A stretch of 64,000 nucleotides of DNA from Polaromonas sp. (GCF_039930745.1 NZ_JBDTTH010000005.1:29385-93384); one strand, 5' to 3'; counted from the stretch's first letter, positions 9,391-50,467 are shown. The notes: generated by a model from the letters alone, not told the origin. Program-made: numbers and translations.

Positions 9391-9414
9391 AAAAAAACCG
9401 GGCATACGCCCGGT
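9391..9414 (-). terminator. Rho-independent terminator of the pilin gene; target site of the IIC intron
   Basis: Minus strand ACCGGGC-GTAT-GCCCGGT followed by a T run (9391-9397), 22 nt after the pilin stop. Confidence 0.85.
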
Positions 9415-9436: not shown

Positions 9437-10075
9437 TCAAAGCTGCTTGCACAAAAAGAAATTTTGCGTATCTTCAATATAGGCAGCCGCAACAGGCGCA
9501 GCCCCAGCAGGCGCAACGATAGAGGAGCGGATCACACCGGTGTTGTTGACACCATCGTCAAGGATCCGGTCCAGGGCACCCGCGAATTTTCCTGACAATC
9601 CATTGAGACAGACCGTGTTTCCGCTCAAGCCATAAACGCCGTTACCCAGCGCAATTGTGCCGCCGCCGGCATGAACCGGACGCGCAGCGGCCCCAGCGAG
9701 AACAGCGCTGCCAGAGATAAAACCCGCATAACGGAGTGCGCGAAATGCATTCACGGTCTCCCCTGCAGCCACCGCATAAGGATCGCCGCCGGTGACGCCG
9801 ATCAAACCGTTGCCGTTCCCACCGCCGACGTTGGCGGCCCAGCCGTTTTGCGTTGTCGTGTTGATGGTTTCATCCCCTGGCAGGGCCCGGTAGCGGTCAC
9901 GGTAGCTCAGCACCCCGGCGCTGACTGCGTCCATATCTTTGCCAATATTCTTGATCTTGCTGCTTTCGATCAGTTCCTGACCTTTAAGGACACCTGCCAG
10001 CAGCAGGCCAACAATGACCAGCACAATTGCGATTTCCACCAGAGTGAAACCGGCTTGCTTTTTGAATGACTTCAT
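9437..10075 (-). CDS. Type IV pilin-like protein (prepilin N-terminal cleavage/methylation domain)
   Basis: Class III signal KKQAG|FTLVEIAIVLVIVGLLLAG with Glu5; C-terminal Cys pair. Confidence 0.9.
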   Translation of the reverse strand: MKSFKKQAGFTLVEIAIVLVIVGLLLAGVLKGQELIESSKIKNIGKDMDAVSAGVLSYRDRYRALPGDETINTTTQNGWAANVGGGNGNGLIGVTGGDPYAVAAGETVNAFRALRYAGFISGSAVLAGAAARPVHAGGGTIALGNGVYGLSGNTVCLNGLSGKFAGALDRILDDGVNNTGVIRSSIVAPAGAAPVAAAYIEDTQNFFLCKQL

Positions 10076-10095
10076 TCATGACTCCAAATTAGACG

Positions 10096-10162
10096 GCACG
10101 AATTGCGCCGGTAAGAAAATGTATCTTTTGTTTTAGGAATCAGGGAGTCAGGATTTTTTACA
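10096..10162 (-). promoter_or_regulatory. Candidate enhancer-like box plus sigma54-like -24/-12 element upstream of the pilin
   Basis: 17-bp TGTAAA-N5-CTGACT (10162-10146), then GG-N10-GC (CGGCGCAATTCGTGC, 10110-10096). Both matches are imperfect. Confidence 0.3.
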
Positions 10163-11309
10163 GGGGGATGGAGAGCATCACCCGCAGGCCCGTCCCCAAG
10201 GTTTCCGCAAAAAGCTCCCCGCCTGCTGCCTGCGCCTGTTTGCGCGCCTGGTACATGCCCAGTCCCTTGTTCACCGAACCAGAACTGGACCAGGGTTCAA
10301 ACAGCTTTTCCAGGGGAATCTCCAGCCGCAAGTGCTTTGTTTCCATGGAAACCAGGGTGTTCTGCGCGTCTTGCTTGATCACGATGCGGCAACTGGCCGG
10401 GAGCATGCGCTCACGCGACAGGCTGGACACATTGCCCAGCACATTGTCCAGAACAGCCGCCAGCGCATGACTGTCCCATTCCACCCGCGCGGAGCCTGCC
10501 AGATCGATCTCAACCTGATGCAACTCTGCTGCCTGCCGGATGTGCTCCGGCAGATCAAGCAGTTCCAACTCCGCCGCTCCATGCATTTCAAGTGGCGCTG
10601 ACACCGAGGCCTGCCAGGCCGGGTTCAGCAGCGCCTGGCTCATGCGCTCCGCCCGTTGGGTGGCATGCGCGGCATTTTTTTTTAGGCGTTTTGCGCGCGT
10701 AAGGAGTTCGGCATCGCTTTCGGCGGATCCAAAATCCTCCGCCACCAGTTGCACCCACTGCGCGAGGTTGCGCATGTCGTGCTGCAGGAACACCCCCACC
10801 CGGGCGCGTTGACTGGAGGCGGCCACCAGCGCCAGCTGGCGGGCGGCCAGCGCCCCCTGGATCATCGCGAACAGCACTTCGGACGCCTGGACGGCAAACA
10901 GGTGACGCTCTCCGCGCAGTCCCTTGAGGCCGATGCGGAATTCCAGCGAGATGTCGTCGTAGTCAAAGCGCTGGTGAAGAATCCGGTCGCTGATCCGCTC
11001 CGCGTCGAAGGAAAGACGGGCTCCTCCTTCATGCGGCCTGAGCGGTATTTTTGCGCCGAGGCGCGTGAACACAGGCGAGCCATACCAGTTGCCGCGCCAG
11101 TCCAGGCTGCGCAGCCCCAGATCGGCCAGTGTTTTCTGATGGAGGACCAGGGTGCCCAGCAAATCGTCGTGCAGGGATTCGCGCAAGGCCAGCAACTGGT
11201 CCATGCGCCCACGGTGCTGGCGGCTCAGGTGGCGGAGCCAGAACAGGGTCAGGCCGACGCTCGAGCCGGCCACAACCAGGGCAACGGCTGCGTCGTACAA
11301 GTCGGTCAC
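10158..11309 (-). CDS. Sensor histidine kinase-like protein, PrsK-like, degenerate ATP-binding domain
   Basis: One N-terminal TM; H box VFLQHDMRNLAQW; N box VLDNVLGN; F box KLFEPW; G2 KGLGMY; no DxGxG G1 box. GTG start overlaps the regulator stop. Confidence 0.75.
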   Translation of the reverse strand: MTDLYDAAVALVVAGSSVGLTLFWLRHLSRQHRGRMDQLLALRESLHDDLLGTLVLHQKTLADLGLRSLDWRGNWYGSPVFTRLGAKIPLRPHEGGARLSFDAERISDRILHQRFDYDDISLEFRIGLKGLRGERHLFAVQASEVLFAMIQGALAARQLALVAASSQRARVGVFLQHDMRNLAQWVQLVAEDFGSAESDAELLTRAKRLKKNAAHATQRAERMSQALLNPAWQASVSAPLEMHGAAELELLDLPEHIRQAAELHQVEIDLAGSARVEWDSHALAAVLDNVLGNVSSLSRERMLPASCRIVIKQDAQNTLVSMETKHLRLEIPLEKLFEPWSSSGSVNKGLGMYQARKQAQAAGGELFAETLGTGLRVMLSIPL

Positions 11310-11923
11310 GACGAAGCTCTTTCAATACCGAATTTCTTCATGAAGTAATACAGGTGCTCCCGCGTCAGGCCCAGCTTGCGGGACGCCTGCGCCACATTGA
11401 ACTGGCTTTCCGCCAGCACCGAACGCACCAGGCGCTCCTGCGCCGCCTCGCCGAATTCGCGCACCCCCTCGCTGATGGGCGCGGTCAGCGTCATGCGCGC
11501 CTGACCGTCCATGCTGAGCTGGTTTTCCGCCTGCAGGAATAAAACCGCCCTGGCCAGGGCTTCCCGTACGCGCTGACTGCTGGCAGGTTTGTTCAGGAAA
11601 TCAAAAGCTCCCAGACCTATCGCAGTGAGCGCTACGGAAGGTTCATCCTGCCCCGTCAGCACCACCACCTTGAGCGAAGGCCGGTCGACCATCAGCAATC
11701 GCAACAACTCCAGGCCCGCTGTCGGCTCATTGGGATGCGGCGGCAGGCCGAGATCAAGAACGGCGAGATCAAACGCCGTCTGCGTCCGGCGGGAAATTGC
11801 CAGGGCTTCCACGGGAGAGCCAGCCGACAGCACGTCGTAACCCATGTCTTCGAGCGAGCCGGACCACCAATCGCGCAAAGAGGCATCGTCTTCGACAACA
11901 AGAACGGTGCGGCGGCCTTGCAT
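11306..11923 (-). CDS. Response regulator, REC + Fis-type HTH (PrsR-like, no AAA+ domain)
   Basis: VEDD, LDLGLPP, LTG and NKP receiver motifs; C-terminal NVAQASRKLGLTREHLYYFMKKFGI. ATG at 11923 preferred. Confidence 0.82.
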   Translation of the reverse strand: MQGRRTVLVVEDDASLRDWWSGSLEDMGYDVLSAGSPVEALAISRRTQTAFDLAVLDLGLPPHPNEPTAGLELLRLLMVDRPSLKVVVLTGQDEPSVALTAIGLGAFDFLNKPASSQRVREALARAVLFLQAENQLSMDGQARMTLTAPISEGVREFGEAAQERLVRSVLAESQFNVAQASRKLGLTREHLYYFMKKFGIERASS

Positions 11924-11975
11924 GATGAAGGGGTAATGAATTGAGACAGCTGTGTTGCGGGTACCGGTGATGCCC

Positions 11976-12884
11976 CTAGGGCAGTACACCATTTCCCTGC
12001 ATGCGCTGGATCAGCTGTTCGATGGTCAGCCACACCACGAGGTCATCAAAGTATCCGTTCGGCGCAGTCGACTCGGACCGGGGCCGCGACACCAGGACCC
12101 TGTCATTGTTTGTATTTGCGGTCTCGTCCACGCTCAGGGCAGGCGGCGCCGCATTGAGATTGGCGCCGTAGGAATACACAGCGTAAGCCGGATTGGCGAG
12201 CTGTCGGCCACCCGCACAGGCGGCAGCGCCAATCGAGTCACAAACAAAAATATCACTCACAGGAGCAGCAACCGGGTTGTAGTAGCGGTTGCGAATACCG
12301 TCAGCGTGCGTGAAGGGGTAACAGCTTGCGACACCCCCTGCGCAGGTGGCCGGCGTGATCGCCAGTGTGACGGACCCGTTGTTTGTCGTGGTATTCAAAG
12401 TGGTGGGCACCATGTAGCGCAGGGGACGGGCCCAGGCATCCAGCGCAAGACCATTTGCACTTTGTCCTGGCAGGCCCAGTGTCGCAGCCGGCACAAAACC
12501 CGTGTTGGCAGTAGCCGTTGTAAAACAACGCCCTCGCTCCGACCCCTGGCCTGTGGCGGGCGCAAAAACCTCCGCACCACAACCGGCCCCAGGATTCGGA
12601 TTGGTACAGAAACTCTCTCTTCCCGCGCTGGTTGCCGTGGCTGGACACGGCAGGCGCCGGTTGACCATGGCGAACGCGAGGACGGCATCGCTTGCATCCT
12701 GCATCTGGCGCAGCGTGTCGGAAAATTTTTTGTTGATCAATTGCGGGCCCAACGCAGCCATGCCCGCTCCCAGTGCCAGTCCCGCAATGACCAGCACCAG
12801 GGCAATCTCGATCAGGCTGAAGCCACGCTGCCGGCCTTTGGCAAAGGAGCGTTCTCGGGCGGCAGTAAAAGTTTTTTGAGTCAT
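11976..12884 (-). CDS. Pilin/pseudopilin-like protein with large Cys-containing C-terminal domain
   Basis: GRQRG|FSLIEIALVLVIAGLALG class III signal; RRLPCPAT motif. ATG at 12884 preferred. Confidence 0.85.
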   Translation of the reverse strand: MTQKTFTAARERSFAKGRQRGFSLIEIALVLVIAGLALGAGMAALGPQLINKKFSDTLRQMQDASDAVLAFAMVNRRLPCPATATSAGRESFCTNPNPGAGCGAEVFAPATGQGSERGRCFTTATANTGFVPAATLGLPGQSANGLALDAWARPLRYMVPTTLNTTTNNGSVTLAITPATCAGGVASCYPFTHADGIRNRYYNPVAAPVSDIFVCDSIGAAACAGGRQLANPAYAVYSYGANLNAAPPALSVDETANTNNDRVLVSRPRSESTAPNGYFDDLVVWLTIEQLIQRMQGNGVLP

Positions 12885-12888
12885 ATCG

Positions 12889-13455
12889 TCACTCCTTGTT
12901 GCGCAAGACCGGGGCCAGCTTTGGCGGATTGATTCGGATGGATCCCGGGGGCAGCATGTCGAGAGCCTGCCCGGAAGGCACGTCAACCACCTGACCGGGC
13001 TTGACCTTGAGCTGGACGTCTTTCACCAGCGGCCTCAATACACCGGCCTGGCCTGCCAGCGTGCGCAGTGGAGTCACTGAAGCCTGTCCGTACAAGGGCT
13101 GGTCATTGACCCATACCGTGCTGCGATTGCCCGAGCGTACGACAAAGCCGCTGACGACCAGCGTATCGGGAAGTGCCAACGCCTGATTTTCAGAAGGGAG
13201 CGCCTGCACCCCTTGTTCCACGTCAGCACTGAGGTTTCGCACTGCTTCCAGGTTCCGCCGCTGCGCGGGTGAGAGCAGCAGGGACCCAAGTTTCCGTATC
13301 GCCCCGGTATCGGTTCCAACAGGCATTTCAGGTTTTCCTGTCTGGGCAAGCGCGGAAAAAACAAACAGCGCGAGCGGGCCACAGGCAGCAATGTGTACCC
13401 ACGGCATGGCGCGATGCAGAAGTAGGCCATGGATTTTCACAGCGTTCCCTGTCAT
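12889..13455 (-). CDS. Pilus-operon accessory protein (secreted/lipoprotein-like, uncharacterised)
   Basis: Hydrophobic leader; LGSLLLSPAQRRNLE and GFVVRSGNRSTVWVND segments; ATGA coupling within the operon. Confidence 0.6.
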   Translation of the reverse strand: MTGNAVKIHGLLLHRAMPWVHIAACGPLALFVFSALAQTGKPEMPVGTDTGAIRKLGSLLLSPAQRRNLEAVRNLSADVEQGVQALPSENQALALPDTLVVSGFVVRSGNRSTVWVNDQPLYGQASVTPLRTLAGQAGVLRPLVKDVQLKVKPGQVVDVPSGQALDMLPPGSIRINPPKLAPVLRNKE

Positions 13456-14084
13456 GGGGGCTTGACCGCTGAATTTTCAGCCACCACATAAAGCCAGGAG
13501 AGTTCGCACTTCACATCCACAGCGGGGGTTGATGCGCCAGATTTCATGAACATTTTCCGGTCGTACACACAGTTGTCAGTGGTGAAATACCCGCCACCGC
13601 CCCCCTGCAGGCGCGAAAGCACGGTAATCCATTCCTCCTCATGCACTGCACTGATACCGAGTTTCATCGGGACGCGTACCAGATGTGCCACTGTCTCCCC
13701 AGACTTGTCGTCGGTAAATGGTCTCAACTTTTCCTGCACGCCCAGCTCCCACGACAGGTCGCTTTTTCGCAGGTCACGCGCCGCGCTTTCCAGCGTCTCC
13801 AGCATGGCCAATCGATCAGGCTTGTGGGCAAAACGGGACTGCTTGAGCTTACCGAACAGCTGCAGATTTTCCTCCAGCCTTGCACGGTCCGATTGAGTGT
13901 TTTCCAGCGACAAATTGGCCGCGTCCAGAGTCGCCTGGGCCCTCGCCTGCTCCAGCGCAAGGTCTTGCGCCAGCCAATGTGAACCGCCAGCCATCGCGGC
14001 AGCGGCGATACACATGGCAGCGCTCCACACGAGGGGTTTGGCCGCGATCTGCCAGATGCTCCGTGACTGTTGCGACGCGCTCAT
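13452..14084 (-). CDS. PilO/GspM-like inner-membrane alignment protein
   Basis: Single TM, coiled coil, then a ferredoxin-like pattern (PMKLGISAVHEEEW); operon position; ATGA overlaps at both ends. Confidence 0.6.
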   Translation of the reverse strand: MSASQQSRSIWQIAAKPLVWSAAMCIAAAAMAGGSHWLAQDLALEQARAQATLDAANLSLENTQSDRARLEENLQLFGKLKQSRFAHKPDRLAMLETLESAARDLRKSDLSWELGVQEKLRPFTDDKSGETVAHLVRVPMKLGISAVHEEEWITVLSRLQGGGGGYFTTDNCVYDRKMFMKSGASTPAVDVKCELSWLYVVAENSAVKPP

Positions 14085-15664
14085 GCTGCCACCTTCTGCA
14101 AACACAACTCAAGTGTTCGCGCGCCGACTTCACCCAAGGTGCCGGTTTGGACCTGCACCGGGTCCAGGGTGACGGTGGACTTGAGCAGCGACGCTGACCA
14201 GCCACCCGAGTTGAGACTCGTCAACAGGCTGTCCTGCAAGGCCAGCGCCTGCCTCTGTGTCAGCGAGCGTGGCAACTCGGCACTGACACTCAACAGGGCG
14301 AGCGCAGGCTTTGCTGGTTCAGCAGCGGGGACCGGTTCCACGGGGGGAGCGGCGGGGTCCATGATCACGGGACACGCGAAGGGTGCAGCCGTAGCGGGAG
14401 GCGCGCCGGCGACCTGGGCTTGCAGGCGCGGCAACTCCCACGATATTTTCTGCACCTCCACCCCGCGCGCATTGCTGAGCGCAGCAGCCAGGTGTTGCAG
14501 GCCGGAAAACTGGTCGGGCTGGGCTGCAATCGTCTGTTTCCAGGCCTGCACCGTCGCCACAGCAAGCCCGGCTTCGCTCAGGTCACCCTTGGCGCGCAGC
14601 ACTTCCTGCTTGGCCTGCGCGTTGATGGCTGCAGCGCCAATCACTTGCTGCTGCGCCAGGTTGCGCTTGCCCCAGGACAGCCATAACAAGTCTGCAGACC
14701 ACAAGCCCGCGACGACCAGGGCGATGACACCGGTGATGGTCGCAGTGCGGGCTACCTGGGCTGCACGCCACTGGGTGCGCGACTCATCGGGCAAAAACTG
14801 CAGTTGCGCGGATGCCGACTTGAGTCGTGGCAACAAATACGCATAGGCATCAAGCACCGGCTCGATAATTTGCAGATCCAGTGCCGGGTCACTACGCGAG
14901 GCTTCCAGCGCCTGCTCGTCGTCCGACGGAAGCCACATCTGGGTGGCCACGGGTTGCTCGGTACTGCTGATCCACTCCTGGGAGATCAGGTACTGGATGG
15001 TTCGCCGCGCTTCGGCGAGCACGAAGTCAGCCGACAGGCTGCCCTCACCGGCGCTCAGCGCCAGCCTGGAGAACAGCGGAGTTTTGCCCCGCACCAGCAC
15101 CTGACGCAAACCCGCCGGCGTGGCCACCAGCGCGAGCACAGGCGGGACGATCCCGGGCACCTGAACCTTGTTTCCGGTTTCGGCGGGCGTGTCGGAGGGT
15201 GCCCGCCGGGGCGCCTTGCGATTGACGGAAAGCGCAACCAGGGCCGACAGGGGCCACAAACCCTTGACGTGAATGTGATGCGCCGTCAAAGCATGCAGCC
15301 ACTGGCCGATGCGCTCGCTTTGGCCCAAACCGATCAGACTCACGCGCGTAGGTGGCCGCCATGAACCGGACGGCTCCAGAACCGCTGCGCGGTAGGGATT
15401 GTCGCGCAGTTGCTGCGTCAACCGCCGCTGCAGCAGTTGCTGCCGAGTGGCAGACATCCAGATCGGCGGCAACACGTTGCGAATGTAAGCCTCGTCCATG
15501 ATGTCGCTGACCAACGAACACTCGGCGCGCGCTGGCAAGTGAGCGGCAACCCAGGTCAGCGGATCGTCGTGCGTCCGCGCCGTCGCGATCGGCTCTGCCC
15601 CGGCGCGATACAACCGGTACAGGTGCACCGTCTGCTGGGCGATAACGAGGGCGAACGCAGCCAT
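14081..15664 (-). CDS. PilM/PilN (GspL)-like fused alignment protein
   Basis: Cytoplasmic N-terminal domain, one central TM, periplasmic domain; lies between the platform gene and the PilO-like gene. Confidence 0.55.
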   Translation of the reverse strand: MAAFALVIAQQTVHLYRLYRAGAEPIATARTHDDPLTWVAAHLPARAECSLVSDIMDEAYIRNVLPPIWMSATRQQLLQRRLTQQLRDNPYRAAVLEPSGSWRPPTRVSLIGLGQSERIGQWLHALTAHHIHVKGLWPLSALVALSVNRKAPRRAPSDTPAETGNKVQVPGIVPPVLALVATPAGLRQVLVRGKTPLFSRLALSAGEGSLSADFVLAEARRTIQYLISQEWISSTEQPVATQMWLPSDDEQALEASRSDPALDLQIIEPVLDAYAYLLPRLKSASAQLQFLPDESRTQWRAAQVARTATITGVIALVVAGLWSADLLWLSWGKRNLAQQQVIGAAAINAQAKQEVLRAKGDLSEAGLAVATVQAWKQTIAAQPDQFSGLQHLAAALSNARGVEVQKISWELPRLQAQVAGAPPATAAPFACPVIMDPAAPPVEPVPAAEPAKPALALLSVSAELPRSLTQRQALALQDSLLTSLNSGGWSASLLKSTVTLDPVQVQTGTLGEVGARTLELCLQKVAA

Positions 15665-15665
15665 A

Positions 15666-16868: not shown

Positions 16869-18583
16869 CAGGTACCCACGCGCGTCAGGTCAACCACGCG
16901 GGCGACTTCCTCGAGCGAGGTGCTGCCAGCTTTCACACGGGCCAAGCCGTCTTCGGCCATGGTGGTGAAGCCATTGCTGCGCGCATAGGCCGATATCTCC
17001 GGCGTACGGGCATTGCGCGAGAGCAGGTCGTCCAGACCCATGTCAAAGCGCAGAAGTTCCATGATGCTGGTCCGGCCCTTGTAGCCCTGCCCTTTGCACT
17101 GCGGGCAGCCGACCGCCCGGTAAAGCGTCAGCGGGAGCTTGACCGGTGCGTCGAGCAGGGTTTTCTCGACATCACCCGCCTCATAAGACTCCTTGCATTC
17201 GGGGCACAACAGGCGCACCAGACGCTGCGCCACGATGCCTATCAGGTTACCGGTCATCACGCTGGCAGGTATGCCGAGATCCAATAAACGCGCAATGGCC
17301 AGTACCGCCGAGTTGGCATGCAGGGTTGAAAACACCTGGTGGCCGGTCATGGCGGCGCGAAACGCCATCTCTGCCGTTTCATGGTCGCGAATCTCGCCCA
17401 CCAGGATGATGTCCGGATCCTGCCGCATCATGGAGCGGATGCCGTTGGCAAAATCCATCTTCGGGTTGTCCGCGGCGGAGGCCTGCCGGATGCGGGCCAT
17501 TGGGTATTCCACCGGGTCTTCCAACGTCATGATGTTGACGCTTTCGGTGTTCATCTCGTTGAGGATGGAATACAGCGTGGTGGTCTTGCCGCTGCCGGTT
17601 GGCCCGGTCACCAGGATGATGCCGTAGGGCCGCGCCAGCATCATGCGCAGCGTGTTCATGCGCGCTTCGGGCAGACCCATCTTGTCCATGGGCACAATGG
17701 ATTTGCGCCGGTCCAGCACCCGCAGCACAAAATTCTCGCCGTGAATCGTCGGCTGCGCAGCGGCCCGAAAATCAACGTCGTGGCCGCGGATCACCATCGA
17801 GATGCGGCCGTCCTGGGGTGCGCGGGTTTCTGCAATGTCCATGCCCGACAGCACCTTGAGCCGGACGGAGAGCGCCGGCCAGTACTGCTTGTGCAACACC
17901 CGCACCTGCCGTAGCACGCCGTCAATGCGGTAACGAATCCGTAAAAAACCCTCTTCGGGTTCGAAGTGAAGATCGGAGGCGCCTTCGTGCACAGCATCGG
18001 CGAGCAGCGCGTCAATCAGCCGAACGATGGGGTGCGCGAATGCCTCGATACCCCGCATCGACAAGGCATCATCATCCATTCGGCCGGTACGCAGCCCCTT
18101 GAGGATGTCGTCTATCGACAGCGCATAGCCGTAGAAGCGGTCAATCGCCGCCTTGATATCGGCCTTGGACGCCAGACGCCATGCCAGCGAAATGTCCACC
18201 GGCACCACAGACCGGCACTGGTCCATGGCCACGACGTCGTTGGTGTCGCTGATGGCCACTGTCAGTTTGCGGCTGTCTGCATCGAAGCCGACCGGGAACA
18301 CATCGTAGCTTTGTGCCAGTGTTTTCGGGATCAGCTTGATGGCCACGTCGTCGGGCACCATGTCGCTGAGCTTGATGGCCTCAGTCGCGCTGGCCGCGGC
18401 CATGATGGCCGTCAGGTCGTCGATCGACAACATGCCCAGGCTGACCAGGATGTCACCGAAGGAGCCGCCGCGCTTTTCGCGCTCCGTCCAGGCAATTTCG
18501 GCCTGGTCCTGCGTGATCAGGCCGCTACGCTCAAGTTCAAGATAGAACGTTGTGGGGTTGTAGATATCGAGCTTGGTGCTCAC
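16868..18583 (-). CDS. GspE/PilB/MshE-family assembly ATPase
   Basis: ASDLHFEP, Walker A GPTGSGKTTT, Asp box TLEDPVEY, Walker B RQDPDIILVGEIRD, His box, two CxxC (CPEC, CPQC). Confidence 0.94.
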   Translation of the reverse strand: MSTKLDIYNPTTFYLELERSGLITQDQAEIAWTEREKRGGSFGDILVSLGMLSIDDLTAIMAAASATEAIKLSDMVPDDVAIKLIPKTLAQSYDVFPVGFDADSRKLTVAISDTNDVVAMDQCRSVVPVDISLAWRLASKADIKAAIDRFYGYALSIDDILKGLRTGRMDDDALSMRGIEAFAHPIVRLIDALLADAVHEGASDLHFEPEEGFLRIRYRIDGVLRQVRVLHKQYWPALSVRLKVLSGMDIAETRAPQDGRISMVIRGHDVDFRAAAQPTIHGENFVLRVLDRRKSIVPMDKMGLPEARMNTLRMMLARPYGIILVTGPTGSGKTTTLYSILNEMNTESVNIMTLEDPVEYPMARIRQASAADNPKMDFANGIRSMMRQDPDIILVGEIRDHETAEMAFRAAMTGHQVFSTLHANSAVLAIARLLDLGIPASVMTGNLIGIVAQRLVRLLCPECKESYEAGDVEKTLLDAPVKLPLTLYRAVGCPQCKGQGYKGRTSIMELLRFDMGLDDLLSRNARTPEISAYARSNGFTTMAEDGLARVKAGSTSLEEVARVVDLTRVGT

Positions 18584-20283
18584 CTGGCGGCCCTCAGCGC
18601 AGCCAGCCGGGTCCGCGCGTTCAACTCGTCAAACCCTGCAGCCTTCCCCTGCGCGAGCCCGAGGGCTGTTTCGTAATACTGGGCCGCAAGGCTGGACTTG
18701 CGCATGTGATCAAGCGCAACCGCCAGGTTGTACGCGAACTGCGGCTCTTTCGGAGCCAGCGCGTGTGCCTTGAAAAACAGCGGTTGCGCTTCAGACCAGC
18801 GCTGCTCGCCCGACAACACCAGCGCTAGCGCGTGGTTCAGGTCGGCTTCCTGCGGCGAACGGGCCAGCAGTTCGCGCAGGCGCGACTCCTGCTGCGGCTC
18901 ACCGGCGGCCCGGCTAAGGTTGCTCACACCAGCCAAAGCCGTGGCGTTCTGTGGCTCCAGGCGCAGCACCCGCCGGTAGGCGTCCATCGCCGGTTCAAGC
19001 TGGTTGTTTGAATGCGCGATGACCGCCAGGCCAAGCCAGGCATCGCGCTGCGTGGCATCGGCCTTGAGAACTTCGCGGTACAGGCGCGCCGCTTCGACGG
19101 TGTTTCCCGACTGGTAAGCCGCATACGCCGAATCCATGAGCGATCCGGGTCTGGCCGTGCTGCTTGGCGGGGGCGAAGAGGCGACACTAGCGGCCACCGG
19201 CCCCTGAATGCGCGCGGGCCGGCTTCTCGATGCCGGGCTACGGGCAGGTTTATTGACCACCACGCGAGTAGGCGCATCTGCTGCAGGGGTTCGCGAAGGT
19301 GGCACAGATTGAACAACGGGAGAGGCAGGCGCAGCCTCGGGCGGCGACACCGGAACGGCTTCGGGAAGCGCAGCGGCCGGTGCCACCACGGGAGCAGCAG
19401 GTTCAGGTTCAGCCGGCGACGCAGGGGGTGCGGACAAGGCCGGTGTGTTGACCGCCACCAGGTTGCTCGAAGAGCCAAACATGGCGTCACCAAACAGCAG
19501 GAAGGCCATGATGGGCAATGCAAGCAGCAGTGCGATGATCCCTAGCACCCATTGGCGTCGCCGCTGCGGCCGAAGATCGGTGGCCTTGCCCGTTTTTTTG
19601 CCTGCCATGACGCCTGCCGCAGACAGTGCCTGGCGAGGCGTGGTCACAGGTGCCAGCGGCGGCGTTGGCACAGACTGTTTTTCGGCCGGCCTGGCAACTG
19701 CAGTGCCTGCGGGCCTGGAGTGGCCCTCGGATGGTTTGTCTGTCATCCCGCGTGCCGCCGGCCTGAGCGGGCCAGGACCGCTGGCCGCCGCACCGGATGC
19801 AGGCCTTTTGGACGAAACCGGATTGGCGACCAACGCCCCCCAATTGGAACTTGAGTCCTCCCACGCCGGCCTGTCGTAGCGGCCATAGGGACTGGATGCC
19901 TTGCGCGGCGCCAGAGATGCTGGTACCACGACCTCCGGCAAAGGTGTATCTTCTGCTGGCAGTTCGAAATCCAGAAAACTGGCATCGGACGCCGGTCGCA
20001 GGCCCGCAGGCCCCGGCGTGGCTGCCATGTCCAATTGAACAGCTTCCTGCGCTTGCGCTGCAGGTTGTGGCACCGGTGCCGGTTCTGCTTTCGGTACCGG
20101 CTCCAGTGCCACGTCTGTTTGCGCTTCCAGCGTGAGTTCGGCAAGGGGTGCAGCCTGCTCTGCAGCGGCAGCGGAATCCGACTGCGCGAGATCAGGTGCG
20201 GCCGCGGGCGTTTCGGCGTCCGCCAGCTTGCGTTTTTTTGAATCCTGCTCGGCCCGCCTGAGCGCATCCAGCAAAAGACTCAT
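18580..20283 (-). CDS. TPR protein, MshN-like
   Basis: MSLLLDALRRAE start, long Pro/Ala low-complexity linker, central TM, C-terminal TPR-like repeats (YNLAVALDH). Confidence 0.75.
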   Translation of the reverse strand: MSLLLDALRRAEQDSKKRKLADAETPAAAPDLAQSDSAAAAEQAAPLAELTLEAQTDVALEPVPKAEPAPVPQPAAQAQEAVQLDMAATPGPAGLRPASDASFLDFELPAEDTPLPEVVVPASLAPRKASSPYGRYDRPAWEDSSSNWGALVANPVSSKRPASGAAASGPGPLRPAARGMTDKPSEGHSRPAGTAVARPAEKQSVPTPPLAPVTTPRQALSAAGVMAGKKTGKATDLRPQRRRQWVLGIIALLLALPIMAFLLFGDAMFGSSSNLVAVNTPALSAPPASPAEPEPAAPVVAPAAALPEAVPVSPPEAAPASPVVQSVPPSRTPAADAPTRVVVNKPARSPASRSRPARIQGPVAASVASSPPPSSTARPGSLMDSAYAAYQSGNTVEAARLYREVLKADATQRDAWLGLAVIAHSNNQLEPAMDAYRRVLRLEPQNATALAGVSNLSRAAGEPQQESRLRELLARSPQEADLNHALALVLSGEQRWSEAQPLFFKAHALAPKEPQFAYNLAVALDHMRKSSLAAQYYETALGLAQGKAAGFDELNARTRLAALRAAR

Positions 20284-22076
20284 TGCCGCCGCCCCACCGG
20301 CACCGGTGTGCCAATCGACAACTGGCTACGGATAAAGGATGCATCGCCATCAATGCTGGAGTCACGCAATATGGTCGGCCGCAAAAAAATCACCAACTCG
20401 CTTTTGTTGGACTGGTTGCTGCGCAGCTTGAACAACTCCCCGACCACGGGAACGTCGCCCACACCGGGAATCTGGTCAGTCGCGTTGTTCCGGTCGTCCT
20501 GCATCAGTCCGCCCAGCACCGCCGTCTCGCCGTCGCGAACTTTCATGATCGATTCGAATTCGCGGGTTTGAATTTCCGGAATGCGGTTGGTGATGCCGGC
20601 CTGCGCCAGCGCGGGGCTGGGGTCATTCGCGTAGCTGGTGATGCGCGATACCGAGGGCCGCAAGTTCAGTGTGATCTCGTTGTCGTCGCCGACCTGCGCC
20701 GTCACATTCATCAGAAAGCCGACCGGCACCGTGTTGATGGTGGTGGTGTACACAGCAGCGACGGCGGCGACGCCGGGCGACGCTGGCGTGCCGGGCGTCA
20801 CCGAAATCGTGAAATAGACCTTGTTGTCCACCACCTTGAGCAGTGCGGCCTGGTTGTTCATGACACTGACTTTGGGACTGGACAGAACGCGCGTCTTTCC
20901 AAATGATTCAAGCAGGCGAACCGCCGCCCCAATGTCAGTCTTGCTACCGGTTCTGGACGCTACAAACTGGCCCAGAAAGGGCGGGTTCACTCCGGTCGAC
21001 AAGGCGGTCCCGCCGCCCGGCAACATTCCCAGCGCGAGGGCCGTCCCTCCAGGGGCGACCGCGTTACGGATCACCGCCCAGTTGATGCCTTGCTGATAAT
21101 CGCTGGTTAACGCGACTTCCACAATCGTGGCTTCAATCAGCACCTGCCGCCGCGCGTTGCCGACCACCTGGTCCAAAAACTCACGCACGCGCGCATGTTG
21201 CTTGCCTGTCGCACGCACGCTGATGACGCCGGTTTCGGGGTTGGCGATCACCGACGCGGCTTCCCGGTAAAGCGGCTGCGCGGCGGCCACAGGAGCGGGT
21301 GCCGCGGCAGCCGCGGTGAGTGTGCGCGACGCCGCACCTGCGGCGCCCGGCGCTGACGAAACAGCTGCAGCAGGTGCCGGCGCAACAGCAGCCGCAACCG
21401 GCGCGGTTGCTACCGCCGGATCAATCACCTTGTCGGTTTCGCGTAGCAGGTCGCGGATGTTATCGGTCAGCGTGGGCCAAAAACGATTGTTCGAGGTGTT
21501 GCGAATCGATGCCGAAGAAGAATTGCCGGTGCCCGAAGCCGTGCCCTGCCCCGTGGTGGCGACCTGTGACTCTGAGCCCGTGCTGCTGGACGAATCACGC
21601 GTGATGTTCGGATAGTCGACCTTGTACAAGCGAAGGAAAGGCGAATCAGGCAATACAAACAGGTTTTTTCCTTCCAGCTCATAACGCATGTCGACCTGGC
21701 GCGCGACGCGGTCGAGCAACTCGTGGATGGTCTGGTCCAGCGCGTTGAGGGTCACGTTGCCCGTGATACTCGGATGAATATCGAGGTTGAGTTTGGCATC
21801 GCGCGCCAGAGCAAACAGCAGCGTCTGCGCACTGACATTGCTGACCACCACGCTGTAGGTTTCCTGGGGCACGACCGCGCGGGGCGCCGGCAGGCGCGGC
21901 GCGCCGGCCGACAGCGCGGGAATAACGGCTGCATCCACGACGGGCTGTGCCAGTGGCGGAATCTGGCCAGGCTCCTGTGCCAGATGGCCTTTCAAGAGCG
22001 GCGGCGGTGGCGTGGCACAACCGGCGAGCATGACGCCGGCCAGCACCATTTGCCAGAAAGGGCGTGGAGTGTTCAA
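20280..22076 (-). CDS. mshL: Secretin, MshL-like lipoprotein
   Basis: Lipobox LAGC; STN-like domain (LARDAKLNLDIHP); VLIEATIVEV, LSSPKVSVMNNQ, GETAVLGGLMQ, ELVIFLRP motifs. Confidence 0.85.
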   Translation of the reverse strand: MNTPRPFWQMVLAGVMLAGCATPPPPLLKGHLAQEPGQIPPLAQPVVDAAVIPALSAGAPRLPAPRAVVPQETYSVVVSNVSAQTLLFALARDAKLNLDIHPSITGNVTLNALDQTIHELLDRVARQVDMRYELEGKNLFVLPDSPFLRLYKVDYPNITRDSSSSTGSESQVATTGQGTASGTGNSSSASIRNTSNNRFWPTLTDNIRDLLRETDKVIDPAVATAPVAAAVAPAPAAAVSSAPGAAGAASRTLTAAAAAPAPVAAAQPLYREAASVIANPETGVISVRATGKQHARVREFLDQVVGNARRQVLIEATIVEVALTSDYQQGINWAVIRNAVAPGGTALALGMLPGGGTALSTGVNPPFLGQFVASRTGSKTDIGAAVRLLESFGKTRVLSSPKVSVMNNQAALLKVVDNKVYFTISVTPGTPASPGVAAVAAVYTTTINTVPVGFLMNVTAQVGDDNEITLNLRPSVSRITSYANDPSPALAQAGITNRIPEIQTREFESIMKVRDGETAVLGGLMQDDRNNATDQIPGVGDVPVVGELFKLRSNQSNKSELVIFLRPTILRDSSIDGDASFIRSQLSIGTPVPVGRRQ

Positions 22077-23632
22077 GGGGCGGGTTCCTTCCGGATGGCG
22101 TCCAGGCTGCGTACGACCGGGCTGTAGCGCCGGATTGCTGCAGGAGAAGATTGTATGAATTCGAGCGCGTCCAGGCGACTCTCGAAATGCCCGGCATAGA
22201 GGGCATGAAACACCTGGCGCTGGTAAAGCCGGTTGTGAACGAACACCGGCACATCGGCCTGCCCAGAACCGTCCAGCGCCCCTTGCACTTCTTTGGCCAC
22301 TGCCAGCACCTCGGTCTCCCGGGGTGCCCGCTGCGAAAGCACTTGGACAGTGAAACCTTTGCTGGAGGAATTGGCCATGAATTCGTCTGTCACCCGCATG
22401 CGCAAGGCCAGGGAACTGTCCCGCAACTTCTGGGCTAGACTGGATTCGCCTGTTGTATTTGTCGCAGCCACGACAGGCTGGAGTCCATTAACTGCGGGTG
22501 TCCCGACCTCGAGCACTGCCGTGGGAGCCACTGCTTGAGCTGGGGGTGACGCCGGAACGGGGACAACCCGTGCGGCAACCTGGGAGGCTGGCGGTGGCAA
22601 GACGGCCGGCACGGCTGGCACCGCACCCACGCTGGCACTCGTCACCGGCTGGGTCGCTGCTACCCGTTCATGCCTTTCCGCGCCCCGTCCACTTCCCACA
22701 ACGTAACCTACGCCCAAGGCCGCCATCAGGCCAAGACCAGCCGCCGCATATCTTCGCAACAGTCCTGTAGAACCTGCCTTCATGTCCGCGTGCGCCGCTA
22801 ACGGCAGGCGCCTTGTCTTGGGCACGCTGTCGCTCGCGGCGCGGCGCACCTGTTCGAGGCCGACCTGGGGGACGCCTTCCGCGTACGCGGCAAGCATGGA
22901 TTTATCGGCGAGCATGTTGAGCTTGCGGGTACGGCCTTCAGACGCCTGAACCAGCAGACGCATCGCGGCAGCATCAAACAGCTCGCCACCTTTCCAGCCA
23001 GCCTTGTGAAGCCGGAACATCAGGTAAGCCGAAGCCTCCGGGGCGGTAAGGGGCTGCAACTCAAAGCGGTGGCTGATCCGGTCCTTGACTTGCCGTAGTT
23101 GCGGCGCGTCGAGCAGTTCGTCGAGTTCAGGCTGCCCGAACAGCACAATTTTGAGCAGCTTGTTCTGGGTGGTCTCCAGATTGGACAGAAGCCGGATTTC
23201 TTCCAGCGTGGTCGCCGGCATGCTGTGCGCCTCGTCAATCACCACGACAACGCGCCGCCCCTGCGAATAACGCGCGATCAGCTCGGCCTCGAGCGCTGCA
23301 AGCATGTGCGCCCGGTTGCCTTGGGGCGGCTCGGACATCAGGTCATGGGCAATGGCGCCCAGGATCTCGTCGCGATCAAAGACAGGGTTGGCGAGGTAGA
23401 CCGTATCTGATGGTAGAGGGCGCAAACGCTCAAGGAGCATGCGGCTGAGCATGGTCTTGCCCATGCCAATTTCGCCTACGACGCTGACGATCCCTTCGTC
23501 ATGCATGGACGCGACGACCAGCCCCTCCAGAATGTCGCCGCGCTGCCCCCCGGTGAAGAAGAGTCCTGTGTCTGGCGTAATCCGGAAGGGATCTGATGAA
23601 AGCTCGAAGTGGTCTAAATAAAGAACACTCAT
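22073..23632 (-). CDS. ExeA/MshM-family AAA ATPase with C-terminal SPOR-like domain
   Basis: PFRITPD, Walker A GEIGMGKT, Walker B VIDEAH, LFGQPEL, one TM, C-terminal FTVQV...AGHFESRLDA. Confidence 0.85.
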   Translation of the reverse strand: MSVLYLDHFELSSDPFRITPDTGLFFTGGQRGDILEGLVVASMHDEGIVSVVGEIGMGKTMLSRMLLERLRPLPSDTVYLANPVFDRDEILGAIAHDLMSEPPQGNRAHMLAALEAELIARYSQGRRVVVVIDEAHSMPATTLEEIRLLSNLETTQNKLLKIVLFGQPELDELLDAPQLRQVKDRISHRFELQPLTAPEASAYLMFRLHKAGWKGGELFDAAAMRLLVQASEGRTRKLNMLADKSMLAAYAEGVPQVGLEQVRRAASDSVPKTRRLPLAAHADMKAGSTGLLRRYAAAGLGLMAALGVGYVVGSGRGAERHERVAATQPVTSASVGAVPAVPAVLPPPASQVAARVVPVPASPPAQAVAPTAVLEVGTPAVNGLQPVVAATNTTGESSLAQKLRDSSLALRMRVTDEFMANSSSKGFTVQVLSQRAPRETEVLAVAKEVQGALDGSGQADVPVFVHNRLYQRQVFHALYAGHFESRLDALEFIQSSPAAIRRYSPVVRSLDAIRKEPAP

Positions 23633-24167: not shown

Positions 24168-24806
24168 TCAATGCAGCTTGCAACCGGTTCTGGCCTGCAG
24201 GGCTTCCATGGTCACGCCTGGCGCCAGTTCGATGACCTTGAGACCTTCCGGCGTGACGTCCATCACGGCGAGGTCGGTGATGATGCGGTCCACGACGCCG
24301 ACCCCGGTCAGGGGCAAGGTACATTTTTCGAGGAGTTTCAGGTCCTCTGTACCGTCTTTTTTCTTCGCCACGTGTTCCATCAGCACGATCACGCGCTTGA
24401 CGCCGGCGACCAGGTCCATCGCGCCGCCCATGCCCTTGATCATCTTGCCCGGAATCATCCAGTTGGCCAGATCGCCCTTCTCGCTCACCTGCATCGCGCC
24501 AAGGATGCTGAGGTTGATCTTGCCGCCGCGGATCATGGCAAAGCTGTCGTGGCTGCCAAAAATCGCCGACCCCTTGATGGTGGTCACGGTCTGCTTGCCG
24601 GCGTTGATCAGGTCGGCATCCACCTCGTCTTCATACGGAAAGGGGCCAATGCCCAGCATGCCGTTCTCGCTTTGCAGCCAGACCTCGATGTGGTCGGGCA
24701 CGAAATTGGCCACCAGCGTCGGAATGCCGATGCCGAGGTTCACATAAAAACCGTCTTCCAGTTCCTGTGCCGCGCGTGCGGCCATTTGATCTTGGGTCCA
24801 AGCCAT
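24168..24806 (-). CDS. scoB: 3-oxoacid CoA-transferase subunit B
   Basis: VNLGIGIPT, catalytic [13 protein letters not shown]. Confidence 0.88.
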
Positions 24807-24817
24807 GTTCGTGCTCC

Positions 24818-49529: not shown

Positions 49530-49531
49530 GG

Positions 49532-50416: not shown

Positions 50417-50467
50417 GGGAATACCTCTGGAATGGTCATGGCAAAAAAGATGAAGCTGCCCAGCCCA

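What the first reader, a model, noticed from the sequence alone, without database searches (positions are those of the whole stretch)
9437..23632. MSHA-like pilus operon carrying its own miniature PrsK/PrsR-like two-component pair
Seen in sequence: a mostly translationally coupled minus-strand cluster (ExeA/MshM, secretin, TPR, ATPase, platform, PilMN-like, PilO-like, accessory, pilin) followed by a response regulator, a kinase and a terminal pilin. Known: the LDLGLPP receiver signature and HD(L/M)(K/R)N H-box resemble PrsR/PrsK, regulators of PEP-CTERM/exosortase floc and biofilm systems. Inference: a stripped-down PrsKR module has been recruited to control a pilus or secretion machine. A PEP-CTERM-type eps locus lies 11 kb away, so the two may form one attachment/flocculation programme. 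No retraction ATPase or prepilin peptidase is encoded in the cluster.
Basis: partly seen in the sequence, partly recalled or inferred. Interest (0 to 1): 0.7.

Follow-up and report, generated by a model that had tools for sequence, protein, structure and literature searches.

The report
Pilus operon with built-in pilin switch
A conserved gene cluster for an MSHA-type surface pilus in Polaromonas and many other Betaproteobacteria carries its own cut-down sensor-regulator pair, related to the PrsK/PrsR floc regulators, which most likely switches on the main pilin gene through a conserved DNA site just upstream of it.

Summary
Window 9437-23632 (minus strand) is a 12-gene, mostly 4-nt-overlapping operon. 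In order it encodes a MshM/ExeA-like ATPase, MshL-type secretin, TPR protein, MshE/GspE ATPase, GspF platform, PilM-PilN fusion (fold-confirmed), two small envelope proteins, a large pilin, a response regulator, a histidine kinase and a terminal pilin.

The PrsKR resemblance is measurable. All 29 regulators sampled match TIGR02915 (PrsR) best. In a search of 1.84 billion proteins, the ten nearest ~450-aa (PrsR-sized) relatives I tested were all PrsR-type. The kinase link to PrsK is consistent but weak.

Neither protein is a PrsK/PrsR member. The regulator lacks the sigma-54 AAA+ domain. The kinase has one TM helix instead of PrsK's membrane/GAF input, and it lacks the G1 box.

The pair is not a local recruitment. 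In 80 loci from Polaromonas to Gallionella it keeps the same position.

New here is a 17-bp box (TGTAAA-N5-yTGACT) plus a -10-like hexamer before the terminal pilin. It occurs once in the window. In 1.3 Mb of related loci it gave 77 hits, each followed by a pilin gene. Its layout resembles the PrsR box.

The proposed link to the eps locus is not supported by flanking-gene synteny or by the box.

Verdict: a new variant of a known kind.

The parts
22073..23632 (-). MshM/ExeA-like AAA ATPase (519 aa), first gene of the operon
   Evidence: PF13401 AAA_22 at 2.8e-26. TIGR03015 scores 187 bits against a 324.5 cut-off. It is also the first gene in the Gallionellales, Ramlibacter and Polaromonas loci.
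20280..22076 (-). MshL-type secretin (598 aa)
   Evidence: PF00263 at 3.8e-39. TIGR02519 pilus_MshL scores 252.7 against a 250.2 cut-off.
18580..20283 (-). TPR protein (MshN/TadD-like position)
   Evidence: Several TPR Pfam families match. TIGR02917 PrsT scores only 55 bits against a 312 cut-off.
16868..18583 (-). Assembly ATPase (MshE/GspE/PilB family) with MshEN domain
   Evidence: PF00437 at 1.3e-124; PF05157 at 2.4e-13. The c-di-GMP motif model NF053729 scores 29, below its 38 cut-off.
15666..16868 (-). Inner-membrane platform (GspF/PilC/MshG family)
   Evidence: PF00482 at 1.7e-48.
14081..15664 (-). PilM-PilN fusion (GspL/MshI-like) alignment protein
   Evidence: No Pfam, NCBIfam or PDB sequence hit. 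The AlphaFold model has pLDDT 82.4. Foldseek finds PilM at 4e-08 and the EpsL/GspL cytoplasmic domain at 2e-07 with TM 0.65.
13452..14084 (-). Bitopic membrane protein with coiled coil (PilO/MshJ-like by position; not tested)
   Evidence: No family hit. One TM helix followed by a coiled coil is seen in the sequence. The position is conserved in relatives.
12889..13455 (-). Small secreted protein (MshK/PilP-like by position; not tested)
   Evidence: Signal-peptide-like N-terminus and no family hit. Homologues sit at the same position in relatives.
11976..12884 (-). Large Cys-rich prepilin (302 aa, 21-residue leader, G|FSLIE)
   Evidence: PF07963 and TIGR02532 match. Conserved upstream of the regulator in relatives.
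11306..11923 (-). PrsR-like response regulator without an AAA+ domain (receiver plus Fis-type HTH, 205 aa)
   Evidence: PF00072 and PF02954 match. TIGR02915 scores 101.8 bits against a 502.6 cut-off. The phospho-acceptor set D12, D13, D57, T90 and K112 is invariant.
10158..11309 (-). Single-TM histidine kinase with a PrsK-like transmitter and no G1 box (383 aa)
   Evidence: TIGR02916 is the only NCBIfam hit (30.5 bits, 1.4e-07). The AlphaFold model has pLDDT 81.6, with a TM helix, a small alpha/beta domain, a DHp domain carrying H177, and a CA domain. Foldseek matches class I kinases.
10115..10164 (-). Conserved pilin-promoter element: 17-bp box TGTAAAAAATCCTGACT (10162-10146), a 22-nt spacer, then TACATT
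   Evidence: PWM score 45.2, and no other site in the window reaches even a score of 8. In 1.3 Mb of related loci there are 77 hits, all on the operon strand and all followed within about 120 nt by a prepilin ORF.
10094..10110 (-). 5'-UTR hairpin of the terminal pilin mRNA
   Evidence: Found by the stem-loop scan. Compensatory stem changes occur among Polaromonas loci.
9437..10075 (-). Terminal prepilin (212 aa; leader MKSFKKQAG|FTLVE), the probable major subunit
   Evidence: PF07963 at 3.1e-07. The N-terminus GFTLVE(I/L)AIVLVI(I/V)GLLL is near-invariant across all loci. The gene is duplicated in tandem in the Gallionella-type loci L029, L048, L061, L064, L078 and L080, each copy with its own box.
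9397..9414 (-). Intrinsic terminator that ends the cluster
   Evidence: Seven-pair GC-rich stem followed by a T7 run.

Best explanation
This is an MSH-class (MSHA-like) type IV filament operon of a re-ordered betaproteobacterial lineage. A dedicated two-component switch is one of its fixed parts.

The machine genes, a large minor pilin, the regulator and the kinase are co-transcribed and translationally coupled. The terminal pilin is the probable major subunit and has its own promoter.

Proposed mechanism (inferred):
- The kinase has a single TM helix, no periplasmic domain, and a small cytoplasmic alpha/beta domain. It reads a membrane or cytoplasmic cue, possibly the state of the machine or the pool of unassembled pilin, as PilS does.
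- The kinase sets the phosphorylation of the PrsR-like regulator.
- The regulator has lost the sigma-54 AAA+ module. It binds as a dimer to the 17-bp TGT-N11-AC(T/A) box, which sits about 22 nt upstream of a TAcAnT -10 hexamer (roughly -52 to -36).
- From there it activates, or gates, sigma-70-type transcription of the pilin gene or genes.

Shown: gene content, the folds of two proteins, the family affinities, the synteny, and the conservation and specificity of the box.

Inferred: that the regulator binds the box, the sign of regulation, the signal, and whether the filament is an adhesive pilus or a secretion pseudopilus.
For: - Machine identity. Denise et al. [quoted passage not shown]
- PrsR affinity of the regulator: 29 of 29 relatives; 39% identity to a PrsR encoded next to an annotated prsK; all ten ~450-aa hits tested have TIGR02915 as top family at 446-718 bits. 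Three of five contexts checked show a ~690-aa GAF-bearing kinase immediately upstream of the regulator; one of those is a full exosortase/PrsT locus, and the other two contigs are short.
- PrsK affinity of the kinase: 13 of 15 relatives; BLASTP 8e-08; hhalign 91%; kinases encoded next to PrsR-type regulators take five of the six top non-family ranks.
- Fixed synteny: in all 80 kinase-ascertained loci, wherever the contig extends, the order is secretin, TPR, ATPase, platform ... regulator, kinase, pilin. Whole clusters have unrelated flanks.
- Cis element. It is present in 69 of 76 loci with an intact kinase 3' end, and each tandem pilin paralogue has its own copy.
- Box layout: it is the same 17-nt TGT-N11-ACA type that Haft et al. 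2006 described for the PrsR box (PMC1569441, section 7). I found that type upstream of real PEP-CTERM genes: TGTCGG-N5-TTTACA twice in L170, TGTCGA-N5-TTTACA in L089, and TGTCGG-N5-TTGACA and -CTTACA on pDV.
- The regulator is the only DNA-binding protein encoded in the cluster.
Against:
- The box-regulator link rests on co-occurrence. The loci were ascertained through the kinase, so a box without the pair could not be looked for.
- The box shares only TGT and yTkAC with the PrsR box. TGTAAA-N5-TTTACA boxes also occur upstream of sigma-54 promoters of unrelated genes in L121, so the layout is typical of Fis-HTH activators in general.
- I saw no clean co-variation between the regulator's recognition helix and the box half-sites.
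- The kinase lacks the DxGxG G1 box (ETKHLR in its place; a real PrsK has DNGVGM). It may therefore be a poor autokinase.
- The spacing between the TGACTy element and the -10 hexamer (21 nt) is not that of a standard sigma-70 promoter.
Confidence: 0.6

Rival explanations
1. The pair controls something other than the pilin gene, such as the eps/PEP-CTERM floc programme or the whole operon. The conserved box would then be a promoter element read by another factor: an alternative sigma or a global regulator.
For: - The nearest relatives of the pair regulate PEP-CTERM genes (PMC1569441, PMC9850573).
- An XrtB-type eps locus and a PEP-CTERM-like small ORF lie in the same window.
- The 21-nt spacing is unusual for sigma-70 promoters.
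Against: - No second copy of the box occurs in the 64-kb window; apart from the pilin copy, no site reaches a PWM score of 8.
- The cluster's flanks are unrelated in other genera and contain no eps genes.
- All 77 hits in related loci precede pilin genes.
- The cluster encodes no sigma factor or other DNA-binding protein.
Confidence: 0.15
2. The kinase is a pseudokinase or dedicated phosphatase. The regulator would be phosphorylated by another donor, or act unphosphorylated, so the pair works as a brake and not as an on-switch.
For: - The G1 box DxGxG is replaced by (E/D)-T-P-x-L-P throughout the family.
- A genuine PrsK keeps DNGVGM.
- An earlier first-reader note (e1-5236358) raised the same point.
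Against: - H177, the N box (D288, N289, N293), the F box (F337, E338, P339) and the G2 box (G349, L350, G351) are invariant or nearly so.
- An acidic residue is usually kept at the G1 Asp position.
- Solved kinase domains aligned by the profile also have variant G1 regions: the P. aeruginosa bacteriophytochrome reads LNETSGL and a VanS-type domain reads TNRGKTI. That such variants are catalytically active is my recollection and was not tested here.
- The model has a normal class I kinase fold.
Confidence: 0.2
3. The machine is a type II secretion-like exporter and not an adhesive pilus. The terminal 'pilin' would be a pseudopilin whose level is tuned by the pair.
For: - The pilin set in the cluster is small: two prepilins here.
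- The terminal pilin's N-terminus gives weak GspG/GspH hits at 24 bits.
- The PilM-PilN fusion is GspL-like.
- GspE and GspF models score highly.
Against: - The secretin passes the MshL equivalog cut-off while GspD fails (171 against 351).
- MshM-like and TPR (MshN-like) genes and an MshEN domain are present.
- No GspC, GspI, GspJ, GspK or GspM families were detected.
- Tandem amplification of the pilin gene, each copy with its own promoter, suits a major fibre subunit.
Confidence: 0.15

Closest known systems
Vibrio cholerae MSHA pilus locus (mshIJKLMNEGF plus mshBACDOPQ); MSH class of Denise et al. 2019
   Same: - It has MshM-like, MshL, TPR (MshN-like), MshE-type ATPase with MshEN, and MshG/GspF-type platform genes.
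- It is a single locus.
- No prepilin peptidase or retraction ATPase is encoded in the locus.
   Different: - Gene order is M-L-N-E-G-(PilMN)-(O-like)-(small secreted) instead of I-J-K-L-M-N-E-G-F.
- The alignment proteins are unrecognisable by sequence.
- There are only two prepilins here instead of seven.
- It carries an embedded two-component pair and a dedicated pilin promoter box.
PrsK/PrsR (TIGR02916/TIGR02915), the PEP-CTERM regulatory two-component system
   Same: - The receiver domain is 39% identical and shares the LDLGLPPxPxxxxxGL signature.
- Both have a Fis-type HTH.
- H box, F box and G2 box resemble PrsK: HD(M/L)(R/K)N, LF(E/K)P(W/F) and GLG-Y-A(R/K).
- The candidate DNA site has the 17-nt TGT-N11-ACA layout of the PrsR box.
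   Different: - The regulator has no sigma-54 AAA+ domain.
- The kinase has one TM helix and a small alpha/beta domain instead of PrsK's multi-TM plus GAF input (about 690 aa).
- The G1 box is lost.
- Gene order is regulator then kinase, not kinase then regulator.
- The target promoter has a -10 hexamer and no GG-N10-GC.
- The half-site reads TGTAAA instead of TGTCGG.
PilS/PilR control of pilA in Pseudomonas aeruginosa
   Same: A dedicated two-component pair is proposed to control the major pilin gene of a type IV filament, and the pilin gene has its own promoter. The kinase could sense pilin in the membrane, but that is speculation.
   Different: PilR is a sigma-54 activator and PilS has six TM helices. 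The proteins here are not their orthologues: the NCBIfam best hits are PrsR and PrsK.
ActR/PrrA/RegA-type regulators (receiver plus Fis HTH, no AAA+)
   Same: They share the same two-domain architecture and act at sigma-70-type promoters (from my knowledge of the family). This is the second-best NCBIfam family (61 bits).
   Different: The receiver domain is clearly closer to PrsR (102 against 61 bits). The nearest PrsR-sized relatives tested in the large search are PrsR-type.

Membership tests
[quoted passage not shown] | Score at or above the curated equivalog cut-off (502.6 bits) | tested here: not met
   101.8 bits. It is still the best of 18,950 models.
[quoted passage not shown] | Central sigma-54 interaction (AAA+) domain | tested here: not met
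   Only PF00072 and PF02954 match. The protein is 205 aa, and all 29 relatives are about 200-215 aa.
[quoted passage not shown] | PrsR-type receiver domain (LDLGLPP plus insert) | tested here: met
   39% identity to the PrsR-type regulator encoded next to an annotated prsK on an Alteromonas plasmid. The family profile scores two PrsRs at 89-93 bits and other regulators at 40 bits or less.
[quoted passage not shown] | Co-occurrence with exosortase and PEP-CTERM genes carrying a sigma-54 promoter and PrsR box | tested here: inconclusive
   No exosortase and no PrsR box with a sigma-54 promoter was seen in the window.
PrsK (TIGR02916, PEP-CTERM system histidine kinase) | Score at or above the curated cut-off (300 bits) | tested here: not met
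   30.5 bits, covering only model positions 462-679.
PrsK (TIGR02916, PEP-CTERM system histidine kinase) | Large N-terminal multi-TM domain plus GAF input | tested here: not met
   The model shows one TM helix (residues 3-48) and a small alpha/beta domain of about 75 residues. Kinases encoded next to PrsR-type regulators are 683-696 aa, several with GAF hits.
PrsK (TIGR02916, PEP-CTERM system histidine kinase) | PrsK-type transmitter core | tested here: inconclusive
   PrsK is the best curated family in 13 of 15 relatives. BLASTP gives 8e-08 at 19% identity and hhalign gives 91%. Separation from other NtrB-type kinases is small: 52-37 bits against 38-34.
MSH-class type IV filament (Denise et al. 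2019 model) | Mandatory genes mshA (pilin), mshE, mshG, mshL and mshM in one locus | tested here: met
   A prepilin, a T2SSE ATPase with MshEN, a T2SSF platform, a secretin passing the MshL equivalog, and an AAA_22 MshM-like ATPase are all present. The TXSScan profiles themselves were not available, so the test used Pfam and NCBIfam.
MSH-class type IV filament (Denise et al. 2019 model) | No prepilin peptidase in the locus | tested here: met
   None of the 12 ORFs is a peptidase, and the junctions leave no space for one.
MSH-class type IV filament (Denise et al. 2019 model) | Placement inside the MSH clade in ATPase/secretin phylogeny | not tested
Class I two-component histidine kinase (functional autokinase) | H, N, G1, F and G2 boxes | tested here: inconclusive
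   The H, N, F and G2 boxes are conserved. The G1 DxGxG box is replaced by (E/D)TPxLP. The fold is canonical.

The most novel reading that the evidence does not exclude
This lineage may record the conversion of a sigma-54 PrsK/PrsR-type switch into a sigma-70-type one.
- The activator lost its AAA+ module.
- Its 17-bp box moved from an enhancer position about 60 nt upstream of a -24/-12 promoter to a position overlapping the -35 region of a -10-only promoter.
- The kinase shed its multi-TM/GAF sensor and its G1 box. It became a single-helix device that reads the pilin pool or the machine state in the membrane, and it may act mainly as a phosphatase.

Earlier notes from this scan describe sister MSH-like loci with full-length sigma-54 versions. 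I did not verify them. If they are right, the two forms would be a natural before-and-after pair.
Probability: 0.25. Interest if true: 0.7.

Novelty: new variant of a known kind. Interest (0 to 1): 0.55.

Why it matters
MSH-like clusters have been noted in passing in the iron oxidisers Sideroxydans ES-1 and Gallionella ES-2 as rearranged msh loci of unknown function (PMC3770913). My searches of the paper library found nothing describing their regulators. The kinase is annotated 'hypothetical protein' in most genomes, with no Pfam hit on record.

This report offers a concrete, testable circuit of kinase, regulator, 17-bp box and pilin gene. It is conserved from Polaromonas and Rhodoferax to Gallionella, Sideroxydans and Sulfuritalea. 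That gives an experimental handle on surface attachment in cold-water, groundwater and iron-oxidising Betaproteobacteria.

It is also a clean natural example of an enhancer-binding-protein lineage reduced to a plain receiver-HTH activator, with a matching change of promoter type.

Tried and rejected
- A sigma-54 promoter before the terminal pilin. GGCGCAATTCGTGC fits GG-N10-GC, but related Polaromonas loci lose the GG while keeping base pairing. It is a 5'-UTR hairpin.
- A second copy of the pilin box upstream of the operon or in the eps region. None was found. A loose 17-mer match at 34768, 77 nt before galE, falls within the chance expectation: 5 hits against 8.7 in shuffles, with no -10 at the right spacing.
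- A PrsR box in the Alteromonas plasmid region. The AT-rich DNA gives chance matches, and the candidate downstream gene is not a PEP-CTERM gene.
- A printed PrsR-box consensus in the literature. Only the Haft 2006 text description is held.
- Co-variation between the regulator's recognition helix and the box half-sites. It is confounded by lineage and not clean.
- Reaching sister lineages with the PilMN-like profile. Only Polaromonas-type relatives were returned.
- Testing whether the nearest full-length PrsRs sit in pilus loci. None of the five contexts checked contains pilus genes. Three show a GAF-bearing kinase of about 690 aa upstream of the regulator, and the other two contigs are short.
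- A PDB sequence search for the 527-aa protein. No hits.
I therefore could not check the window's own genome for exosortase, a full-length PrsK/PrsR, PilD or PilT, and I could not look for transcript data.

Full report
**What is there.** The minus strand of window 9437-23632 carries twelve ORFs. Their junctions are -4, -4, -4, -1, +1, -4, -4, +4, +52, -4 and +82 nt once the likely true starts are used. Pfam and NCBIfam identify the following:
- an AAA_22 MshM/ExeA-like ATPase (best model TIGR03015, 187 bits, below cut-off);
- a secretin that just passes the MshL equivalog (252.7 against 250.2), while GspD and PilQ fail;
- a TPR protein;
- a T2SSE assembly ATPase with an MshEN domain;
- a T2SSF platform;
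- three proteins with no family;
- a 302-aa Cys-rich prepilin;
- a receiver plus Fis-HTH regulator;
- a histidine kinase;
- a 212-aa prepilin.

An intrinsic terminator at 9414-9397 ends the cluster.

I modelled the first family-less protein (527 aa) from an alignment of 38 positional homologues. The model has pLDDT 82.4. Foldseek matches its N-terminal half to PilM (4e-08) and to the cytoplasmic domain of EpsL/GspL (2e-07, TM 0.65). A long TM helix and a small periplasmic domain follow. The 'PilO-like' and 'accessory' labels for the next two genes rest on position and topology only.

The cluster has no second ATPase and no peptidase. Absence of a prepilin peptidase is the norm for MSH loci according to Denise et al. 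2019 (PMC6668835).

**The organism and the spread of the cluster.** Homologues of the kinase are annotated mostly as Polaromonas 'hypothetical protein'. A scan of one genome per species with a kinase alignment found 152 relatives, of which 80 loci were kept. They come from Polaromonas, Rhodoferax, Ramlibacter, Sulfuritalea, other Rhodocyclales, Gallionella, Sideroxydans, Nitrosomonadales and Oxalobacteraceae.

In every locus where the contig reaches far enough, the order is the same: secretin, TPR, ATPase, platform..., pilin, regulator, kinase, pilin. All regulators are about 200-215 aa.

I viewed three whole clusters with their flanks: Gallionellales, Ramlibacter and a second Polaromonas. Each begins at the AAA_22 gene and ends at the terminal pilin or pilins, and each sits among unrelated housekeeping genes.

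The pair is therefore an old, fixed part of this cluster type and not a local recruitment. The neighbouring eps locus is not part of the unit.

**Is the pair PrsK/PrsR-like?**

*Regulator.*
- TIGR02915 (PrsR) is the best of 18,950 NCBIfam models at 101.8 bits. ActR/PrrA follows at 61.3, NtrX at 55.9 and NtrC at 42.9.
- The same holds for all 29 relatives scanned.
- I fetched two real examples from plasmids. One is the exosortase-adjacent regulator on D. vulgaris pDV (TIGR02915 585 bits). The other is the regulator next to an annotated prsK on an Alteromonas plasmid (491 bits; its PrsK scores 387).
- The receiver domain is 39% identical to the Alteromonas protein and shares LDLGLPPxPxxxxxGL.
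- A profile of the family's receiver domain scores the two PrsRs at 89-93 bits and other regulators in the held loci at 40 bits or less.
- A profile search of 1.84 billion representative proteins returned the family itself (about 45 clusters of 200-230 aa), many multi-receiver proteins whose summed scores are not comparable, and proteins of about 450 aa with two matched stretches. I tested ten of the latter. All ten have TIGR02915 as top family at 446-718 bits, and eight pass the cut-off.
- I looked up five of their genomic contexts. Three show a GAF-bearing kinase of about 690 aa immediately upstream of the regulator, and one of those is a complete exosortase/PrsK/PrsR/PrsT locus. The other two contigs are short. 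None contains pilus genes.

*Kinase.* The link is consistent but weak.
- TIGR02916 is its only NCBIfam hit (30.5 bits, transmitter core only).
- TIGR02916 is the commonest and best family in 13 of 15 relatives.
- BLASTP to the Alteromonas PrsK gives 8e-08 at 19% identity, and hhalign gives 91% probability.
- I compared the family's transmitter profile with about 60 kinases encoded next to NtrC-type regulators. The kinases next to PrsR-type regulators take five of the six top non-family ranks (52-37 bits), but unrelated kinases follow closely at 38-34 bits.

**Membership.** Neither protein is a member of the curated families. The regulator lacks the sigma-54 AAA+ module. The kinase model (45 sequences, pLDDT 81.6) shows a single N-terminal TM helix running into a long helix, a small alpha/beta domain (residues about 50-127), a DHp domain with H177, and a CA domain. 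Foldseek matches only class I kinases. PrsK's multi-TM and GAF input is absent.

The G1 box DxGxG is replaced by (E/D)TPxLP throughout the family, whereas the real PrsK has DNGVGM. The H, N, F and G2 boxes are invariant or nearly so. Profile alignments to solved kinases show that variant G1 regions exist in other kinase domains: LNETSGL in the P. aeruginosa bacteriophytochrome and TNRGKTI in a VanS-type domain. Loss of G1 therefore does not prove loss of activity.

Gene order also differs: regulator then kinase here, kinase then regulator in the PrsK/PrsR loci I saw.

**A conserved cis element.** Aligning the DNA after the kinase stop codon across genera revealed a strongly conserved element. 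It overlaps the last codons of the kinase gene in many loci: (T/C)GTAAA-N5-(C/T)T(G/T)AC(T/A), then yCC, about 19 further variable bases, and a TAcAnT hexamer.

In the window it reads TGTAAAAAATCCTGACT at 10162-10146, with TACATT 22 nt downstream. The pilin ATG lies about 90 nt from the start of the element.

- A weight matrix built from 65 distinct copies scores the window copy at 45.2.
- Apart from that copy, no site in the 64-kb window reaches a score of 8. In 20 shuffles of the window the top score stayed at 13 or below in 19 cases, with a single outlier at 21.
- In the 1.3 Mb of related loci there are 77 hits scoring 20 or more. All lie on the operon strand, and all are followed within about 50-120 nt by a prepilin ORF with the near-invariant N-terminus GFTLVE(I/L)AIVLVI(I/V)GLLL.
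- Loci with two or three tandem pilin paralogues have one copy per paralogue.
- Of 76 loci with an intact kinase 3' end and enough downstream DNA, 69 carry it.
- The matrix was trained on these same loci, so the first copies are circular evidence. The strand bias, the absence of off-target hits and the extra copies are not.

**Comparison with the PrsR box.** Haft et al. 2006 describe the presumed PrsR binding site as a 17-nt motif ending in TTTACA, about 63 nt upstream of a sigma-54 promoter (PMC1569441, section 7). The logo is not held, so I derived examples from real PEP-CTERM genes:
- TGTCGGAAAACTTTACA and TGTCGGAACTCTTTACA before two PEP-CTERM genes in an exosortase/PrsK/PrsR/PrsT contig (L170);
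- TGTCGAGATTATTTACA, 61 nt before TGGCACAGAATTTGCC and a PEP-CTERM gene (L089);
- TGTCGGATAGGTTGACA and TGTCGGAGAACCTTACA on pDV.

The pilin box has the same 17-nt frame, the same TGT start and the same yTkAC end. It differs at positions 4-6 (AAA against CGG) and often at the last base.

The resemblance should not be over-read. TGTAAA-N5-TTTACA boxes also precede sigma-54 promoters of an ABC-permease gene and a TolC-like gene in an unrelated contig (L121). The layout is therefore general to Fis-HTH activators. What differs here is the position: the box lies about 22 nt from a -10-like hexamer, with no GG-N10-GC. That fits an activator lacking an AAA+ domain. The GG-N10-GC-like string in the Polaromonas 5' UTR is a hairpin that keeps pairing through compensatory changes.

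**Most likely mechanism.** The machine genes and the pair are co-transcribed, and the major pilin gene is transcribed separately under the pair's control. The circuit resembles PilS/PilR-pilA in logic. It is built from a PrsK/PrsR-type lineage and works without sigma-54. The signal is unknown. The kinase has no periplasmic domain, so a membrane or cytoplasmic cue is likely. I put 0.6 on the core claim that the pair controls the terminal pilin through the box.

**The eps link.** The window does hold an XrtB-type eps operon. EpsA, EpsB/WcaJ, EpsL, EpsE, EpsF and EpsG all score above their cut-offs at 47212-54066. It also holds a generic wzx/glycosyltransferase block from 34861 and a small ORF with a PEP-CTERM-like tail. 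Neither the flanking-gene synteny nor the box connects these to the pilus cluster. A shared attachment programme remains possible at a higher regulatory level, but nothing here supports it.

**Literature and earlier notes.** MSH-like clusters in Sideroxydans ES-1 and Gallionella ES-2 were noted as rearranged relative to Vibrio and of unknown function (PMC3770913; also PMC10734482). My searches of the held library found no description of the embedded pair or the box.

Earlier AI notes from this scan report sister MSH-like loci in other genomes with full-length sigma-54 PrsR/PrsK-like pairs and sigma-54 pilin promoters. I could not verify these here. If they are true, the present locus is the reduced, sigma-54-independent form.

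**Limits.** I could therefore not examine the window's own genome or any transcript data.

Noticed in passing
window 7640-9390 (minus strand): A group II intron lies directly after the pilin terminator. GTGCG at 9390-9386 follows the T-run. Rfam group-II-D1D4-3 matches 9137-9309 at 111 bits and D1D4-1 matches 9036-9119. The RT/maturase ORF at 7640-9010 scores 409 bits on TIGR04416. From my own knowledge, this layout is that of terminator-targeting (class C) introns.
   Followed up: partly
window 10094-10110 (minus strand): A hairpin sits in the 5' UTR of the terminal pilin mRNA. Among Polaromonas loci the stem changes in a compensatory way: CGGCGC/GTGCCG, CGGTGC/GCGCCG and CGATGC/GCATCG. It may be a stabilising or translational element.
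   Followed up: partly
window 47212-54066 (minus strand): An XrtB-type eps operon is present. EpsA, EpsB/WcaJ, EpsL, EpsE, EpsF and EpsG all score above their NCBIfam cut-offs. No exosortase gene was seen in the window.
   Followed up: partly
window 36060-36404 (+): A 114-aa secreted protein ends in DEPDELPYGTLLATLVLMAAIAVRRSKAGRP, a PEP-CTERM-like tail. It has no NCBIfam hit at 1e-05 and no PrsR box or sigma-54 promoter upstream.
   Followed up: partly
window 47212-48144 (minus strand): The N-terminus of the EpsG tyrosine kinase gives a sub-threshold match to the MshE-type c-di-GMP-binding motif model NF053729 (28.8 bits against a 38 cut-off).
   Followed up: no
window 24767-26182 (+): A PAS plus LuxR/GerE regulator is divergent from the pilus operon. 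A shorter PAS-GerE gene lies near the operon start in another Polaromonas (L086 2493-3047). It may be an additional regulator of the operon promoter.
   Followed up: no
L083 15416-16990; L085 14483-15790: Gallionellales and Ramlibacter versions of the cluster carry an extra large gene between the small secreted protein and the large pilin. The Gallionellales one is 524 aa with a GspK-like QGFALLLF N-terminus. The Ramlibacter one is 435 aa with faint Big_1/invasin hits. The Polaromonas window lacks this gene.
   Followed up: no
L121 4017-4054 and minus strand 509-546: Tandem TGTAAA-N5-TTTACA boxes lie 55 and 76 nt upstream of sigma-54 promoters of an ABC-permease-like gene and a TolC-like gene in a metagenome contig. 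This shows that the box type is used by other Fis-HTH activators.
   Followed up: partly
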